NCBI RefSeq assembly: GCF_045037415.1
Contig: NZ_CP173438.1
Length of the DNA stretch: 64,000 nt
Source: Escherichia coli
GTDB taxonomy: Bacteria; Pseudomonadota; Gammaproteobacteria; Enterobacterales; Enterobacteriaceae
Direction: 5' to 3' (one strand)
The position numbers and the translations under genes are program-made. Numbering within the stretch: the first letter of the stretch is position 1; every line of letters starts with the position of its first letter. Below the pieces are notes generated by a model, which saw only the letters and a list, made by a program, of their open reading frames with translations, had not been told where the DNA came from and did no database searches. Positions 27,897-31,588 of this stretch are shown one piece after another.

Positions 27897-27955
27897 GAGA
27901 GTTACCGTTCTACTATGAGGACCGAATCCTTATATAAAACACTGAGGTAACTCTC
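27897..27955. repeat. 10 bp inverted repeat (GAGAGTTACC ... GGTAACTCTC) 37 bp past betA stop, at the proximal edge of the accessory island
   Basis: Read directly from sequence; could be a betA terminator or island boundary. Confidence 0.4.
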
Positions 27956-28944
27956 ATGCTTCATCGTGACAATCTCGCCAGCAAATTCTAAGCTGACTTG
28001 CTCAATCTGGCTGATGAATGTGCTATGCATACACAGATAAACTACAGATGAAATACCACTCAGCTTAAGAATTACGCCGCTAATGTTCCTGGCTATGGTT
28101 ACCTGTTCATTCCCGCTCACGGTTAGCATATACGAAAAGGGTTCTTGTAACGAGTACAAAAATAAGTCAGACCAAAACCACATGGAGCTTTAAACACGAT
28201 TCGTATAATTTATTAGCAGTGATTTATTTTTACTCTTCTTTAATTAATCATCATGCTTAAATATTTTTTAGCACAAGATTATCGCTTCGCTAACATTTTA
28301 GTTTACATTAATTTTCAATTGATAATAAAAAGTTGTTAATAAGTTTTTTGCGGAAAATAAAAAGTGTTGGAATACTCTCCATCAAATGAATGCAAAATAA
28401 ACAAATTGAGATATACAAAAAGTAAAAATCATTTAAATGAATATTTTAAATTTATGAGCAGAACCCATTAACAATGATTTACTCACGACCAGAAAAGTAA
28501 AGAACACCTTGCAATAATATGTATTTATAAATTCATATCATTGATATTAAACTAATCTTACTTTCTACCCTCCAAATTTATGCATCAAAAAAAACAAAAG
28601 TAAAATCAATTAGATACACAACAAGACGATCTCACAGGAAATGATGTTAAATATCTCAAAACTAATAAAAATCACTAAAACATTAGACGTAATACACATC
28701 CCACACGACCTGTCACTCATAGTTTTAATATTTATTTTTTCACATCATAGTAGATAAAAATACGCATTAAAAATGACTTGTAGAAAAGCTGCACAATAAA
28801 TAGTTCATATTTAATCTGTTGCGTAGAACTACTATTCAAAAAATCTTATTAATGAGATAATGAGATTACATCGATAACGTTCTGATTGCAGGCATACTTA
28901 TCTGGGTGTGCCTCTCTTTTTTTTACAACTGTACACGGTGGCGT

Positions 28945-29508
28945 ATGACGAGAAAATATCTCACACAGGATGAAGTCTACAGGCTGATGGATGCAGCCCA
29001 GAGCATGTCCTTTCCTGAAAGAAATCGCTGTCTAATTATGATGGCTTTCATTCACGGTTTTAGGGCCAGTGAACTTCTTGATTTACGTTTATCCGATATT
29101 GATGCATCTGGAAAACAACTTAATATTCGGCGTATTAAAAATGGTTTCTCGACAACACATCCTCTTCTTCCTGATGAATATAATTTGATCAAGTTGTGGC
29201 TTAAGCAGAGGAAGTTAATTGAAAACGGAGTTGAAGGAGACTGGCTTTTTCTCTCCCGGAAACGCCGCCCTATCAGCAGACAACATTTTTTTTCTATCAT
29301 TCGTGAGGCTGGAAAACGTGCAGGATTAGCTGTAAAAGCACATCCTCATATGTTACGTCATGCCTGTGGTTTTGCTCTGGCTGACAATGGTGTCGATACC
29401 CGACTACTTCAGGATTATCTGGGTCATCGAAATATTCAGCATACTGTCAGATACACAGCCAGTAATGCTGCTCGTTTTAAAGGGGTGTGGAAAAAAAAGC
29501 CTCGTTAA
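28945..29508 (+). CDS. FimB/FimE-type site-specific tyrosine recombinase (phase-variation recombinase, IpuA-like)
   Basis: ORF 28906-29508, probable start MTRKYLTQDEV; strong similarity by eye to FimE (LLDLRLSDID, INIRRIKNGFSTTHPL, HPHMLRHACGFALA, LGHRNIQHTVRYTASNAARF) including catalytic R-H-R-Y residues. Confidence 0.85.
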   Translation: MTRKYLTQDEVYRLMDAAQSMSFPERNRCLIMMAFIHGFRASELLDLRLSDIDASGKQLNIRRIKNGFSTTHPLLPDEYNLIKLWLKQRKLIENGVEGDWLFLSRKRRPISRQHFFSIIREAGKRAGLAVKAHPHMLRHACGFALADNGVDTRLLQDYLGHRNIQHTVRYTASNAARFKGVWKKKPR

Positions 29509-29520
29509 AACAGTACCTTC

Positions 29521-29798
29521 TGATTCAAAATGTCAGATTCCTACGTTTTCCTCAATTCTTCCATAAAAAAACAGCCCATTCAATTAAATAAAACACATAA
29601 CATGTTGATATTTCTAGCTAAAGTAAAATAACCCTATGATTTGAAATGATTAATCACAAAGGTCATACCAGTGATTAACTTTCGCCCATATCGTTAAATA
29701 ACACAAAATTAAAAACAATAAAAATCAAACAAATTAGATTTATATTCCAAGAAAATTAAATATTCAGGCTATTAAACCAAACCTGACATTTTGAATCA
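29521..29798. other. Candidate invertible DNA element (phase switch): 278 bp segment bounded by perfect 16 bp inverted repeats
   Basis: TGATTCAAAATGTCAG at 29521-29536 and its exact reverse complement CTGACATTTTGAATCA at 29783-29798; right end also forms palindrome CCTGACATTTTGAATCAAAATGTCAGG (29782-29808); lies between recombinase stop (29508) and regulator start (29838); internal sequence very AT-rich. Confidence 0.6.
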
Positions 29799-29837
29799 AA
29801 ATGTCAGGTTTTGTAGCAATGGCGTGGACGAGTCTGA

Positions 29838-30632
29838 ATGAAGAAGCCTCTGGTTATTATCAGTGCCTGTCAGTTCACCAGGCTGGCACTGGAGTCTCTC
29901 ATCCCAACGGACAGGTATATCGTGCGGGTGTACAGCAACGTCACTACAGAGGTTGAATTCGTTTTAAAGACCTCCTGTGGCTACCTGTTAGCTGATATCC
30001 CTTCGCTTCCTTCGGGGGAGTTGGTTCTTCTGGCTTGTCTCGCCCGTTTGCGGAGTGATGCCGGGCAATGGCAGGTCTGCCTGACCGGTGACTCCGACTG
30101 GTTCGATAATGCTCCTGCTGCAAGTCTGTATAACGGCTTCCCACGCATCGGCACCATGCTGACAGCGAGTCGTTATCAGAATCAAATTATCCGCTGGTTA
30201 CTGCGTCCTTTGCCCGGCGATATGAGCGATTTCTGGCTCCTGACTGCACGGGAGTTGAGCGTGCTTAAGATTCTGATGCAGGGCATGAGTTTCAGTGAGA
30301 TTGCCCGTTATGAACAACGCAGTTCAAAGACCCTGCATGCGATTGCCACACGGGCTTTAATGAAACTTGGACTGAGAACACTGAGCGATTTCAGGCTGCT
30401 CTATACGGGATGCGGTGACAGCAGAGTGAAACGGAATATACGGCTACATGCAAAATATATCGGACAACATTCCGCTCATCGACTCACTCAGTATGTGCAG
30501 AACATGGTATCCGGAATCCTTTATCCAGAGAAAGTTGCCGTTGGTGAATCAATAAATTCTGACGCCATTTCCGGAAAAGTACTTTCCGGACAAAGAAAAA
30601 ATATATCTAAAAAAAGACCAGGATTGTTATGA
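29838..30632 (+). CDS. LuxR/EcpR-like transcriptional regulator (IpuR-like)
   Basis: 264 aa ORF; C-terminal LuxR-type HTH (LTARELSVLKILMQGMSFSEIARYEQRSSKTLHAIATRALMKLGL); immediately downstream of the candidate switch. Confidence 0.75.
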   Translation: MKKPLVIISACQFTRLALESLIPTDRYIVRVYSNVTTEVEFVLKTSCGYLLADIPSLPSGELVLLACLARLRSDAGQWQVCLTGDSDWFDNAPAASLYNGFPRIGTMLTASRYQNQIIRWLLRPLPGDMSDFWLLTARELSVLKILMQGMSFSEIARYEQRSSKTLHAIATRALMKLGLRTLSDFRLLYTGCGDSRVKRNIRLHAKYIGQHSAHRLTQYVQNMVSGILYPEKVAVGESINSDAISGKVLSGQRKNISKKRPGLL

Positions 30633-30785
30633 CACAGCAGCGTTGTTACTACCACCCACTGCGGCGCACACGGACTCGCTACAGTGTAGGAGCCAAAATA
30701 TTTCTACTGTTCTGGGCTGCAGGATTGGGAGGCATGCTGTACAGCCTGTACAGCGTGCTGGCGTACTGACATCTGTGAGGGAAGG

Positions 30786-31547
30786 ATGCGTTTCGTTCTT
30801 TTCTGTCCCTCAGGAATTGTACCAGCGCAGTTCGCAGCTCTATCAACCGGTTCTGTCGGCAATGTTACCTGCATAAGAACAGAAGAGGAGTTACGCAATA
30901 AATTGCGGCACAGGCCACAGAGTGTCGTGATATCGGCAGGGCGACCTGCCGAATGCGCTGAAATGTGGTTCCGATTTTATCTGGATCACTCATTCGTGGT
31001 GGTGTTGTGCGTCGCGCCCTTTTTTCTGCCACCGGATGTGAGTATTTCTGGCGTTCTCAAAAACCTGAGGTTACTGAAACCAGGAATGTCAGTAGAGCGT
31101 GTCATCAGTATTGCAAATGCCTCTGGTGGGTTTTCAGGACTGAAACATGCAGAAAATTTGCCAGTTATGGACTGTTACTCTGTCTTTATGAAAGAGGTGA
31201 ATAACCGCACAAAGACAATCGTCATGTCAGAACGCTTCCCGGAAAAGCAAAAGAAGGTGTTGTCGTTGCTTCTTGCCGGACACAGCTGGGAATACAGTGC
31301 GCAGTTTCTCAAAACGGGGATAAGACAGATATGGCTTGCCGAGCAGTCGCTAAAAAAGCGTTGGGGGATACCGGACAGCATGTCATTGCGGGAAGCCCTG
31401 CTGCTGAGCAGCAATAATTTTCACGGTGATGGAAATGCATTGGAAACAACGAATGCCATGACATTGCGTGAAAACGGAAATACCAACAGGTATTCCGTGG
31501 TGGTAAATGCAGGGACGCAGGCTTTATCTCTGCATAAATATAAATAA
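30786..31547 (+). CDS. Second regulator-like protein with degenerate LuxR-type HTH
   Basis: 253 aa ORF; C-terminal region KQKKVLSLLLAGHSWEYSAQFLKTGIRQIWLAEQSLKKRWGI resembles a LuxR HTH; true start uncertain. Confidence 0.5.
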   Translation: MRFVLFCPSGIVPAQFAALSTGSVGNVTCIRTEEELRNKLRHRPQSVVISAGRPAECAEMWFRFYLDHSFVVVLCVAPFFLPPDVSISGVLKNLRLLKPGMSVERVISIANASGGFSGLKHAENLPVMDCYSVFMKEVNNRTKTIVMSERFPEKQKKVLSLLLAGHSWEYSAQFLKTGIRQIWLAEQSLKKRWGIPDSMSLREALLLSSNNFHGDGNALETTNAMTLRENGNTNRYSVVVNAGTQALSLHKYK

Positions 31548-31588
31548 GTGGGAAATTGAAATTAGTTACCAGAATGGAGAATTTCTTC

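What the first reader, a model, noticed from the sequence alone, without database searches (positions are those of the whole stretch)
30786..31547. Second, divergent LuxR-like ORF between the first regulator and the autotransporter
As I recall it, the described ipuR-upaE arrangement has one regulator. Here a second 253 aa ORF with a degenerate LuxR-like helix-turn-helix follows after a 150 bp gap. It could be a duplicated, diverged regulator, an anti-activator, or a chaperone-like accessory protein for the autotransporter. Its start codon is uncertain.
Basis: inference. Interest (0 to 1): 0.45.

Follow-up and report, generated by a model that had tools for sequence, protein, structure and literature searches.

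The report
hyxA: known gene, regulator-like fold
The ORF is the already named E. coli gene hyxA, a real and conserved protein whose predicted structure looks like a response-regulator-type transcription factor that cannot be phosphorylated, and the "gap" in front of it holds a conserved 46-residue membrane-peptide gene.

Summary
The 253-aa ORF at 30786-31547 exists as described. It is not part of ipuR-upaE. It is hyxA in the fimX(ipbA)-hyxS-hyxR-hyxA-hyxB island (PAI-X) between betA and ykgH. The window is 100% identical to ST131 genomes, where RefSeq annotates the same coordinates as "protein HyxA". Published EC958 (ST131) mutants are serum-sensitive with shorter O-antigen chains, so the ORF is not spurious.

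So "second LuxR-like regulator" holds at fold level only. "Recent duplicate of HyxR" and "chaperone" are not supported. The start codon is well supported.

The 153-bp gap holds a conserved 46-aa membrane-peptide ORF (30629-30769), also found upstream of HyxA homologues in other Escherichia loci and the Salmonella T1-antigen locus.

Verdict: known gene, modest new annotation.

The parts
28945..29508 (+). ipbA (= fimX, hbiF), the tyrosine-type DNA invertase that flips the downstream switch.
   Evidence: RefSeq annotation in the 100%-identical strain H105. Pfam Phage_integrase E = 5e-50. NCBIfam tyrosine-type DNA invertase E = 4.5e-75.
29525..29807 (.). hyxS invertible promoter element and its recombination sites. 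TCAAAATGTCAG occurs at 29525-29536. Its inverted copy is at 29783-29794. A third copy, direct relative to the first, is at 29796-29807. The second and third copies form a 19+19-nt palindrome.
   Evidence: Inverted repeats; exact copies. hyxS is described in the literature (PMC6083910 and PMC6458436). The window's orientation is colinear with 1780 of 1891 genomes that carry the region. Whether this orientation is ON or OFF was not determined.
29838..30632 (+). hyxR, a LuxR-family regulator of 264 aa and the first gene of the operon.
   Evidence: Pfam GerE E = 1e-6 at residues 135-183. RefSeq name HyxR. A profile of the HyxR family hits the HTH domains of PdeL, RcsB, VraR and GerE in the PDB.
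30629..30769 (+). Small ORF of 46 codons plus stop, not annotated in the ST131 RefSeq record examined (H105). Sequence: MTQQRCYYHPLRRTRTRYSVGAKIFLLFWAAGLGGMLYSLYSVLAY. It has a basic N-terminus and one hydrophobic C-terminal helix. Its ATG overlaps the hyxR stop codon (ttATGA). AGGA lies 5 nt upstream.
   Evidence: Translation. Homologous ORFs of 44-46 codons lie at the same position in loci L003, L005, L006 and L017, and in the Salmonella loci L002 and L018 (the STM0717 position). dN/dS is 0.10-0.60 with synonymous sites near saturation. It is intact in 7 of 7 E. coli lineages. RefSeq annotates it as hypothetical protein WP_001406335.1 in some genomes but not in ST131 strain H105. No Pfam or NCBIfam family matches. 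Maximum mean Kyte-Doolittle hydropathy over 19 residues is 1.56.
30777..30781 (+). Shine-Dalgarno-like GAGGG, 4 nt upstream of the hyxA ATG.
   Evidence: Read directly from the sequence. Identical in 6 E. coli lineages.
30786..31547 (+). hyxA, the ORF of the finding: 253 aa plus TAA.
   Evidence: Mutant phenotypes in EC958 are reported in PMC3789825.
30786..31133 (+). hyxA residues 1-116: receiver-like (βα)5 domain without a phospho-acceptor. The position equivalent to CheY D57 is A51. K98-P99 are retained at the end of beta-5. P82 and D84 are invariant in the family.
31233..31400 (+). hyxA residues 150-205: predicted four-helix LuxR/FixJ-type HTH domain and the most conserved part of the family. 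The core is T177-G-I-R-Q-I-W-L-A-E-Q-S-L-K-K-R192.
   Evidence: pLDDT 90-97, helices 153-163, 168-175, 179-193 and 201-205. Foldseek alignments of about 210 columns to full-length FixJ, StyR, RcsB, VraR, ChrA, DesR and LiaR. 13 of the 17 invariant columns of the family lie in residues 139-196. Net charge is +1 to +8 in all 9 members.
31401..31544 (+). hyxA residues 206-253: poorly conserved C-terminal tail, predicted with low confidence, absent or different in homologues.
   Evidence: pLDDT 33-56. The alignment ends near residue 205-215 in most homologues.
31589..33880 (+). hyxB (= upaB), an outer-membrane autotransporter. Its start lies 41 nt after the hyxA stop.
   Evidence: RefSeq annotation. 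Pfam Autotransporter beta-domain E = 1e-47. PMC3789825 equates hyxB with upaB.

Best explanation
The ORF is hyxA, the third cistron of the phase-variable operon hyxR / 46-aa ORF / hyxA / hyxB, which the literature places under the FimX-invertible hyxS promoter.

HyxA is most likely a cytoplasmic, phosphorylation-independent ('orphan, atypical') regulator of the NarL/FixJ/LuxR architecture. It has an N-terminal receiver-like domain that has lost the acidic phospho-acceptor pocket, a linker helix, and a C-terminal four-helix HTH domain that binds DNA.

When the switch is ON, HyxA is made together with HyxR and changes transcription of envelope genes. The known output is O-antigen chain-length distribution and hence serum resistance.

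Status of each step:
- Shown here or in the literature: gene identity, conservation, purifying selection, operon-like packing, predicted fold, absence of the Asp, mutant phenotype.
- Inferred: DNA binding, the target genes, and any partnership with HyxR, RcsB or the small membrane peptide.
For: Identity:
- 100% DNA identity to ST131 genomes, with hyxA annotated at the same coordinates.

Function in vivo:
- The EC958 hyxA mutant shows a 3-log loss of viability in serum and a shift to short O-antigen chains. LPS profiles of complemented strains are shown in the same paper (PMC3789825).
- hyxS inversion was found in transiently phage-resistant clones selected in vitro; the gene is listed among those with surface-structure functions (PMC12361893).

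Fold:
- The AF2 model has pLDDT 77 and pTM 0.72, with order β-α ×5, then a long helix, then 4 helices.
- The top 30 Foldseek PDB hits are full-length NarL/FixJ-type regulators: FixJ E = 2e-5, then StyR, RcsB, VraR, ChrA, spr1814, DesR and LiaR, aligned over about 210 columns.

Atypical receiver:
- The D57-equivalent column reads A,A,T,H,V,P,A,I,Y.
- No acidic residues follow beta-1.
- The K109-equivalent Lys is kept in 8 of 9 members.
- No histidine kinase gene lies in the locus.

The HTH is the functional core:
- 13 of 17 invariant columns lie in residues 139-196.
- Net charge of the domain is positive in all members.

Operon packing:
- The hyxR stop overlaps the small-ORF start.
- 16 nt separate the small ORF from hyxA, and 41 nt separate hyxA from hyxB.
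- The simple consensus scan placed no terminator-like site in any of these intergenic gaps; its only terminator-like hits in this stretch lie inside coding sequence.

Context:
- Homologues sit downstream of Fim-type invertases and upstream of surface-structure genes: autotransporters in L006 and in the window, and T1 polysaccharide genes in Salmonella L002.
- PMC11294581 already refers to hyxA and hyxR as 'putative transcriptional regulators'.
Against: - No sequence-based method detects a GerE/LuxR or Response_reg domain in any of the 9 family members: Pfam and NCBIfam, PDB sequence profiles, hhalign against the HyxR family, and a custom HMM against shuffles.
- The regulator assignment therefore rests on one AlphaFold model built from a 9-sequence alignment.
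- Full-length TM-scores are low (0.30-0.49). This is plausibly because the inter-domain orientation differs, but no domain-only structural comparison of the HTH could be run.
- No DNA-binding data, regulon or binding site is known.
- STM0717 and STM0718 were dispensable for T1 antigen production from a plasmid in E. coli (PMC11294581).
- The O-antigen phenotype could be indirect.
Confidence: 0.6

Rival explanations
1. HyxA does not bind DNA on its own. It acts as a partner or anti-activator. Its receiver-like or HTH domain would heterodimerise with HyxR or with RcsB, as the auxiliary FixJ/NarL-type partners RcsA, BglJ and MatA/EcpR do (from established knowledge of RcsB). This would retarget or titrate that regulator.
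For: - RcsB is among the best structural matches.
- HyxA and HyxR are co-transcribed, and both mutants shift O-antigen chain length (PMC3789825).
- The HyxA HTH is too divergent for any GerE profile, as might be expected if canonical DNA contacts were relaxed.
Against: - The strongest conservation in the family lies in the predicted recognition helix, and the domain is net positive.
- HyxA homologues occur without any HyxR gene: Salmonella T1 locus L002, and L009/L010.
- hyxA stays intact in O157:H7, where hyxR is a pseudogene.
- The hyxA mutant phenotype is stronger than that of hyxR.
Confidence: 0.2
2. HyxA activity is controlled by the 46-aa membrane peptide encoded just upstream. The peptide would tether, sequester or activate the Asp-less receiver domain, replacing a histidine kinase as the input. 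The conserved functional unit would then be the peptide-HyxA pair rather than HyxR-HyxA.
For: - The small ORF is conserved in length, frame and sequence immediately upstream of HyxA homologues in at least 6 diverged loci, including Salmonella loci where HyxR is missing.
- It is under purifying selection.
- In O157:H7 it stays intact together with hyxA while ipbA, hyxR and hyxB are pseudogenes.
- Spacing is tight enough for translational coupling.
Against: - There is no evidence that the peptide is translated or that it contacts HyxA.
- The two most divergent HyxA homologues (P0037 and P0048 loci) lack a recognisable small ORF.
- Gene adjacency alone does not show interaction.
Confidence: 0.15
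3. HyxA is an accessory or chaperone-like factor for secretion or folding of the HyxB/UpaB autotransporter.
For: Only position: it lies directly upstream of hyxB in E. coli and of a HyxB-like gene in L006.
Against: - The predicted fold is a cytoplasmic receiver plus HTH.
- There is no signal peptide. Homologues carry charged residues in the first 20 positions.
- Homologues precede polysaccharide genes or a CaiF/GrlA regulator instead of an autotransporter.
- hyxA is intact in O157:H7 and O145 strains in which hyxB is disrupted.
- The mutant phenotype concerns O-antigen.
Confidence: 0.03
4. The ORF is spurious or a decaying pseudogene.
For: - No domain hit in any sequence library.
- Many truncated or frameshifted versions exist in public protein collections.
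Against: - Intact in 7 of 7 sampled lineages, with dN/dS below 1.
- Homologues at 28-53% identity span the full length.
- The fold prediction is confident.
- A complemented mutant phenotype is published (PMC3789825).
Confidence: 0.01

Closest known systems
HyxA of E. coli UTI89/EC958 (PAI-X; RefSeq WP_001213045.1)
   Same: Identical gene with the same coordinates, length and neighbours (ipbA/fimX, hyxR, hyxB/upaB, between betA and ykgH).
   Different: Nothing differs. This is the same gene. The literature gave it 'no functional prediction' in 2013 (PMC3789825) and called it a 'putative transcriptional regulator' in 2024 (PMC11294581).
STM0718 of the Salmonella T1-antigen locus (represented here by P0038 in L002)
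   Same: Same family. It is 36-39% identical over about 215 residues (39% reported in PMC11294581). It lies downstream of a FimX-like invertase and switch, and is preceded by the homologous small membrane ORF (the STM0717 position).
   Different: There is no HyxR gene. The downstream genes encode a polysaccharide pathway (glf, glycosyltransferases, ABC transporter) rather than an autotransporter. It has a short N-terminal extension and lacks the E. coli C-terminal tail.
NarL/FixJ-family response regulators (FixJ 5xt2, StyR 1yio, RcsB 5w43/6eo3, VraR 4gvp, DesR 4ldz, LiaR 5hev)
   Same: Predicted two-domain architecture: a (βα)5 receiver, a linker helix and a four-helix LuxR-type HTH. These are the best structural matches over about 210 aligned columns. 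The Lys at the end of beta-5 is kept.
   Different: - There is no phospho-acceptor Asp, no acidic pair after beta-1 and no cognate kinase.
- Structural alignments show only 11-17% identity.
- It is undetectable by the Response_reg or GerE HMMs.
Atypical, phosphorylation-independent response regulators (for example Helicobacter HP1043, 2hqr; VpsT 3klo/3kln)
   Same: A receiver fold used without phosphotransfer. Both appear among the structural hits.
   Different: HP1043 has an OmpR-type winged-helix output domain. VpsT binds c-di-GMP through a W[F/L/M][T/S]R motif (from my own knowledge of VpsT), and I did not see that motif in HyxA by eye. No specific sequence relationship was found.
HyxR, the adjacent regulator
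   Same: Same operon and similar size. It has a LuxR-type HTH at about the same relative position. Its N-terminal half has a β/α pattern, but that model is of low confidence (pLDDT 45).
   Different: HyxR is a sequence-detectable GerE member and HyxA is not. There is no significant HyxA-HyxR similarity by BLASTP or hhalign. HyxR keeps an invariant Asp (D53) in a position that could correspond to the acceptor.
   Same: A Fim-type invertase and an invertible promoter, followed by a LuxR-type regulator and an autotransporter (PMC6083910).
   Different: It is a different locus next to ipuA/ipuB, and it is described as a two-gene operon with no hyxA-like gene. The window's locus is hyxRAB.

Membership tests
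HyxA (named E. coli protein, PAI-X) | Sequence identity and synteny: ipbA/fimX, hyxS, hyxR, hyxA, hyxB, located between betA and ykgH. | tested here: met
   100% DNA identity over 5.1 kb to ST131 genomes. RefSeq hyxA has the same coordinates.
LuxR/GerE C-terminal HTH domain (Pfam PF00196) | Significant match to the family HMM, or to profiles of known members. | tested here: not met
   - No PF00196 hit at E <= 10 for any of 9 family members.
- No NCBIfam hit.
- No PDB GerE-domain hit with the family profile.
- hhalign against the HyxR family gives E = 0.12-0.23.
- A GerE-type HMM scores 0-4.6 bits, against up to 10.2 for shuffles.
LuxR/GerE C-terminal HTH domain (Pfam PF00196) | Four-helix bundle with the HTH formed by helices 2-3, at the C-terminus of the protein. 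| tested here: met
   Met in the predicted structure only. Helices lie at 153-163, 168-175, 179-193 and 201-205, with pLDDT 90-97. Full-length alignments to FixJ, RcsB, VraR and others have Foldseek probability 1.00.
LuxR/GerE C-terminal HTH domain (Pfam PF00196) | Characteristic sequence pattern in register (VLxLLxxGxSxxEIAxxL...S/TxxTVxxH...KLgV). | tested here: inconclusive
   Weak local alignments fall on the same register in 7 of 9 members (HyxA 153-177) but are not statistically significant. By eye, HyxA 157-195 can be aligned without gaps to the RcsB fragment shown.
LuxR/GerE C-terminal HTH domain (Pfam PF00196) | Sequence-specific DNA binding. | not testable with these tools
   Requires EMSA or ChIP. 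The only supporting observation is a net positive charge of +1 to +8 in the domain.
Two-component response regulator (receiver domain, Pfam PF00072) | (βα)5 CheY-like fold. | tested here: met
Two-component response regulator (receiver domain, Pfam PF00072) | Phospho-acceptor Asp at the end of beta-3 and an acidic pair after beta-1. | tested here: not met
   The acceptor-equivalent column reads A,A,T,H,V,P,A,I,Y. The positions after beta-1 are C/S/T/Y/R/K, P/S/Q/A and S/V/K.
Two-component response regulator (receiver domain, Pfam PF00072) | Conserved Lys at the end of beta-5. | tested here: met
   K98 is present in 8 of 9 members and is followed by Pro in 4.
Two-component response regulator (receiver domain, Pfam PF00072) | Cognate histidine kinase, usually encoded nearby. 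| tested here: not met
   No kinase gene lies in the island or among its neighbours, nor in the homologous loci.
ipuR-upaE phase-variable operon | Location next to ipuA/ipuB, and a two-gene operon of regulator plus UpaE. | tested here: not met
   The invertase here is IpbA/FimX and the genes are annotated hyxR, hyxA and hyxB. The ipuR-upaE description comes from PMC6083910.
RcsB auxiliary partners (RcsA, BglJ, MatA/EcpR, GadE) | Heterodimer formation with RcsB. | not tested
   This is only a lead from the structural resemblance to RcsB and from general knowledge. No interaction prediction could be run with these tools.

The most novel reading that the evidence does not exclude
The conserved functional unit may not be 'HyxR plus HyxA' but a two-gene core: a 46-aa membrane peptide plus the Asp-less receiver-HTH protein HyxA.

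This pair travels behind Fim-type invertible promoters in Escherichia and Salmonella. It persists where HyxR is absent (Salmonella T1 locus) or decayed (O157:H7).

In this reading the peptide replaces a histidine kinase as the input to an orphan regulator that tunes surface glycan architecture, such as O-antigen chain length. That would be a phase-variable, peptide-gated regulator class not captured by any Pfam or NCBIfam model.
Probability: 0.2. Interest if true: 0.55.

Novelty: already known. Interest (0 to 1): 0.3.

Why it matters
hyxA contributes about 3 logs of serum survival in the pandemic ST131 clone (PMC3789825), yet it has had no mechanistic annotation.

Assigning it a receiver-plus-LuxR-HTH fold without a phospho-acceptor gives a concrete and testable mechanism. 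It would be a phase-variable transcription factor acting on envelope genes. The model points to specific residues to mutate: R180/Q181 in the recognition helix, and D84/K98 in the receiver.

The conserved 46-aa ORF shows that the 'hyxRAB' operon really has four cistrons. Published hyxR insertions may therefore be polar on two downstream regulators.

For genome annotation, the HyxA family (28 hits among 1.84 billion representative proteins, and no Pfam model) is an example of a regulator visible only by structure prediction.

None of this changes the fact that the gene itself, its name and its phenotype are already published.

Tried and rejected
1. Sequence-level proof of a LuxR HTH. All of the following were negative:
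- Pfam, NCBIfam and PHROGs scans.
- PDB phmmer and hmmsearch.
- BLASTP and hhalign against HyxR and against an enlarged HyxR-family alignment.
- A home-made GerE-type HMM with 1800 shuffled controls.

2. Looking for bridging homologues that carry a GerE annotation.
- The exhaustive phmmer search and the profile search found only HyxA-family proteins.
- The only PF00196-labelled hits are HyxR-HyxA read-through or frameshift fusions.

3. Structure of HyxR, to compare the two architectures. The model was too poor to use (pLDDT 45).

4. AFDB50 fold search. The library was unavailable.

5. Species-wide survey.
- The first attempt failed because the alignment was too diverse.
- The second attempt found only one Escherichia sp. 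and one Salmonella diarizonae representative genome.
- A plasmid search gave nothing informative.

6. Testing whether the HyxR-like protein P0111 is IpuR. It is not. It belongs to an IS1-disrupted copy of the plasmid-type HyxR/HyxA/CaiF-GrlA module.

7. Reading the original hyxRAB papers (Bateman & Seed 2012; Bateman et al. 2013). Neither is held in the library.

8. The promoter and terminator scan gave no usable promoter in hyxS and only chance-level terminator-like hits inside coding sequence. The ON/OFF state of the switch in this window was therefore not determined.

9. Rejected ideas:
- Signal peptide or periplasmic chaperone: charged N-termini in homologues, and a cytoplasmic fold.
- c-di-GMP binding like VpsT: I saw no W[F/L/M][T/S]R motif by eye, but this was not tested formally.
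Full report
**What is in the sequence**

- The + strand carries an ATG-initiated ORF of 253 codons at 30786-31547, ending in TAA.
- Upstream lie a Fim-type tyrosine invertase gene (28945-29508) and an AT-rich spacer of about 330 bp with inverted repeats.
- Next comes a 264-aa GerE/LuxR-type regulator gene at 29838-30632 (Pfam GerE E = 1e-6).
- Downstream lies an autotransporter gene at 31589-33880 (Pfam Autotransporter E = 1e-47).
- The block sits between betA and ykgH.

**Which locus it is**

- Megablast of 28800-33900 against complete E. coli genomes gives 100% identity to many ST131 strains.
- The features under the match are annotated ipbA (also called FimX or HbiF), hyxR, hyxA and hyxB.
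- RefSeq hyxA (WP_001213045.1) has exactly the coordinates of the finding.
That operon is a separate two-gene operon next to ipuA/ipuB in CFT073 (PMC6083910).
- The region is present in 1895 of 5426 complete E. coli genomes.

**What is already published on hyxA**

- In ST131 strain EC958, TraDIS and defined mutants showed that hyxA (EC958_0460) and hyxR are needed for serum resistance and shift O-antigen chain length.
- The hyxA mutant had the stronger effect, a 3-log loss. Complemented strains were analysed.
- A 2024 paper on the Salmonella T1 antigen calls hyxA and hyxR 'putative transcriptional regulators' and notes that STM0718 is 39% identical to HyxA (PMC11294581).
- hyxRAB is transcribed and up-regulated in a commensal lysogen (PMC12922286).
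- hyxS inversion was found in transiently phage-resistant clones selected in vitro (PMC12361893).
- The gene is therefore real, expressed and functional. The 'spurious or decayed ORF' alternative is refuted.

**Start codon**

- 30786 is the first canonical start after the upstream in-frame stop.
- GAGGG lies 4 nt upstream, and this stretch is invariant in six E. coli lineages.
- Homologues at 40-53% identity align from residue 1.
- Residues 3-6 form the first strand of the predicted fold.

**Is it LuxR-like? Sequence evidence**

All sequence tests were negative:
- No Pfam, NCBIfam or PHROGs family matches HyxA or any of eight relatives, even at E <= 10.
- PDB sequence searches with the protein or with the family profile find nothing relevant.
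- BLASTP against HyxR finds nothing.
- hhalign of the HyxA family (A1) against the HyxR family (A2, A4) gives E = 0.12-0.23.
- A GerE-type HMM, built from the HyxR family plus PdeL, RcsB and VraR fragments, scores the HyxA family at 0-4.6 bits. Shuffled sequences reach 10.2 bits.
- As a contrast, the HyxR family profile does find the GerE-type domains of PdeL, RcsB, VraR and GerE in the PDB.
- The one consistent hint is that weak local alignments repeatedly place HyxA 153-177 on the first two helices of the GerE domain.

The family itself is tiny and closed:
- There are 28 hits among 1.84 billion representative proteins.
- A profile search finds no bridging members.
- Only one Escherichia sp. 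and one Salmonella diarizonae genome among species representatives carry a relative.

**Is it LuxR-like? Structure evidence**

- AlphaFold2 on the 9-sequence alignment gives mean pLDDT 77 and pTM 0.72.
- The model has five β-α units (residues 1-116), a long helix (131-147) and four helices (153-205) with pLDDT 90-97. The tail (206-253) is of low confidence.
- Foldseek against the PDB returns full-length NarL/FixJ-type response regulators as its top 30 hits, the first 17 at E <= 0.001: FixJ (E = 2e-5), StyR, RcsB, VraR, ChrA, spr1814, DesR and LiaR. VpsT appears further down the list (E = 5e-3). Alignments span about 210 columns, so both domains are covered.
- Full-length TM-scores are modest (0.30-0.49), as expected when the relative orientation of the two domains differs.

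**An atypical receiver**

- In the family alignment, the column equivalent to the phospho-acceptor (A51, end of beta-3) reads A,A,T,H,V,P,A,I,Y.
- The positions after beta-1 carry no acidic pair.
- The Lys at the end of beta-5 (K98) is kept in 8 of 9 members.
- P82 and D84 in the beta-4/alpha-4 loop are invariant.
- No kinase gene lies in this locus or in any homologous locus.
- HyxA therefore cannot be a conventional phospho-accepting regulator.
- Conservation is concentrated in the C-terminal domain. 13 of 17 invariant columns lie in residues 139-196, centred on T-G-I/V-R-Q-I/V-W-L-x-E-x-x-L-K/R-x-R. The domain is net positive in every member. This is what would be expected of a DNA-reading helix.

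**Selection**

- hyxA is intact in all seven E. coli lineages sampled: ST131 (the window), APEC, O145, O157:H7 and four other lineages from animal and wastewater sources.
- dN/dS is 0.18-0.67 within E. coli and 0.22-0.28 against diverged loci.

**The 'gap' is a gene**

- An ATG at 30629 overlaps the hyxR stop codon (ttATGA) and has AGGA 5 nt upstream.
- It opens a 46-codon ORF ending at 30769, 16 nt before the hyxA start.
- The product is MTQQRCYYHPLRRTRTRYSVGAKIFLLFWAAGLGGMLYSLYSVLAY, with a basic N-terminus and one hydrophobic C-terminal helix.
- ORFs of 44-46 codons with the same pattern (R-Y-S-x-G-A-K, a hydrophobic helix, then L-Y-x-V-L) lie at the same position upstream of HyxA homologues in L003, L005, L006 and L017.
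- The same is true in Salmonella at the STM0717 position (L002, L018), and there is a weaker version in L004.
- Pairwise dN/dS is 0.10-0.60 with near-saturated synonymous sites.
- The ORF is intact in 7 of 7 E. coli lineages.
- RefSeq annotates it as a hypothetical protein in some genomes (WP_001406335.1) but not in the ST131 record. Some GenBank submissions call it too.
- It matches no Pfam or NCBIfam family.
- The operon is therefore hyxR, small ORF, hyxA, hyxB, tightly packed.

**Genomic context of the family**

- HyxA homologues lie behind Fim-type invertases in L002 and L005.
- They usually follow a HyxR-like gene (L003, L005, L006, L007, L008).
- They lie upstream of surface-structure genes:
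  - a HyxB-like autotransporter with a divergent passenger domain (L006, 47% identity);
  - T1 polysaccharide genes in Salmonella;
  - a CaiF/GrlA-type regulator on a plasmid-like contig.
- In Salmonella, HyxR is absent.
- In O157:H7, ipbA, hyxR and hyxB are pseudogenes while hyxA and the small ORF remain intact.
- Both observations argue that HyxA has a role independent of HyxR and HyxB.

**Most likely mechanism**

- HyxA is a phase-variably expressed, phosphorylation-independent regulator of the NarL/FixJ/LuxR architecture that acts on envelope genes. O-antigen chain length is the known read-out.
- Shown: identity, conservation, fold prediction, missing Asp, operon packing and the published phenotype.
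- Inferred: DNA binding, the targets, and the partners.
- Rival readings, with rough weights:
  - a non-DNA-binding partner of HyxR or RcsB (0.2);
  - gating by the small membrane peptide, which is compatible with the main model (0.15);
  - an autotransporter chaperone (0.03);
  - a spurious ORF (0.01).

**Verdict**

It is not ipuR-upaE, not demonstrably a HyxR duplicate, and the gap is not empty.
- The gene is already known and named, so novelty is low.
- The useful increments are the structural class of HyxA and the conserved 46-aa cistron.

Noticed in passing
window 30629-30769 (+): A conserved 46-codon ORF for a small membrane peptide lies between hyxR and hyxA and overlaps the hyxR stop codon. 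It is homologous to the C-terminal part of Salmonella STM0717. It is annotated in only some RefSeq genomes (WP_001406335.1) and is under purifying selection.
   Followed up: yes
window 29525-29536, 29783-29794, 29796-29807; locus L019 (E. coli EC17): The hyxS switch carries three copies of TCAAAATGTCAG: the outer inverted pair plus a third copy that is direct relative to the first and abuts the inverted one, forming a 19+19-nt palindrome. Strain EC17 has a precise 271-bp deletion between the two direct copies. This leaves only 58 bp between ipbA and hyxR. It suggests that the recombinase can excise the switch as well as invert it, giving a switch-less allele.
   Followed up: partly
locus L013 (E. 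coli O157:H7 ECP17-1298), equivalent to window 28900-33900: In O157:H7, ipbA is frameshifted and truncated, hyxR has an internal stop and hyxB is truncated. Yet hyxA and the 46-aa ORF are intact. In O145 strain RM9154-C1 (L014), hyxB is disrupted by an IS3-family element while hyxA is intact.
   Followed up: partly
window 29420-29900, compared with 1891 E. coli genomes: The hyxS orientation in the window is the majority one: 1780 of 1891 genomes are colinear over at least 80% of the query. Whether that is the ON or the OFF state could not be decided, because no consensus promoter was found in either orientation.
   Followed up: partly
loci L007, L008 and L021: A plasmid-like variant of the module has a HyxR-like gene (213-217 aa), then a HyxA-like gene (P0037), then a CaiF/GrlA-type regulator. 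A gene of about 990 aa of unknown function converges on it. No recognisable small ORF is present. In some E. coli chromosomes this copy is disrupted by IS1.
   Followed up: partly
locus L006:1519-3831 compared with window 31589-33880: A HyxB-like autotransporter has a nearly identical translocator domain but a strongly divergent passenger domain (47% identity overall). This suggests diversification of the passenger domain behind a conserved regulatory module.
   Followed up: no
window 28000-28900: A very AT-rich stretch (GC 0.24-0.33) lies between betA and ipbA, probably the left boundary of the PAI-X island. A 93-aa ORF at 27902-28183 on the minus strand was not examined.
   Followed up: no
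public protein collections (P0004, P0006, P0019, P0027-P0031): Many database 'proteins' from this region are frameshift or read-through fusions, for example small ORF fused to HyxA, or HyxR fused to HyxA. One pattern is consistent with a 1-nt difference in the A-run of GCCAAAATATTT within the small ORF. It is unclear whether these are assembly errors or real slippage variants.
   Followed up: no
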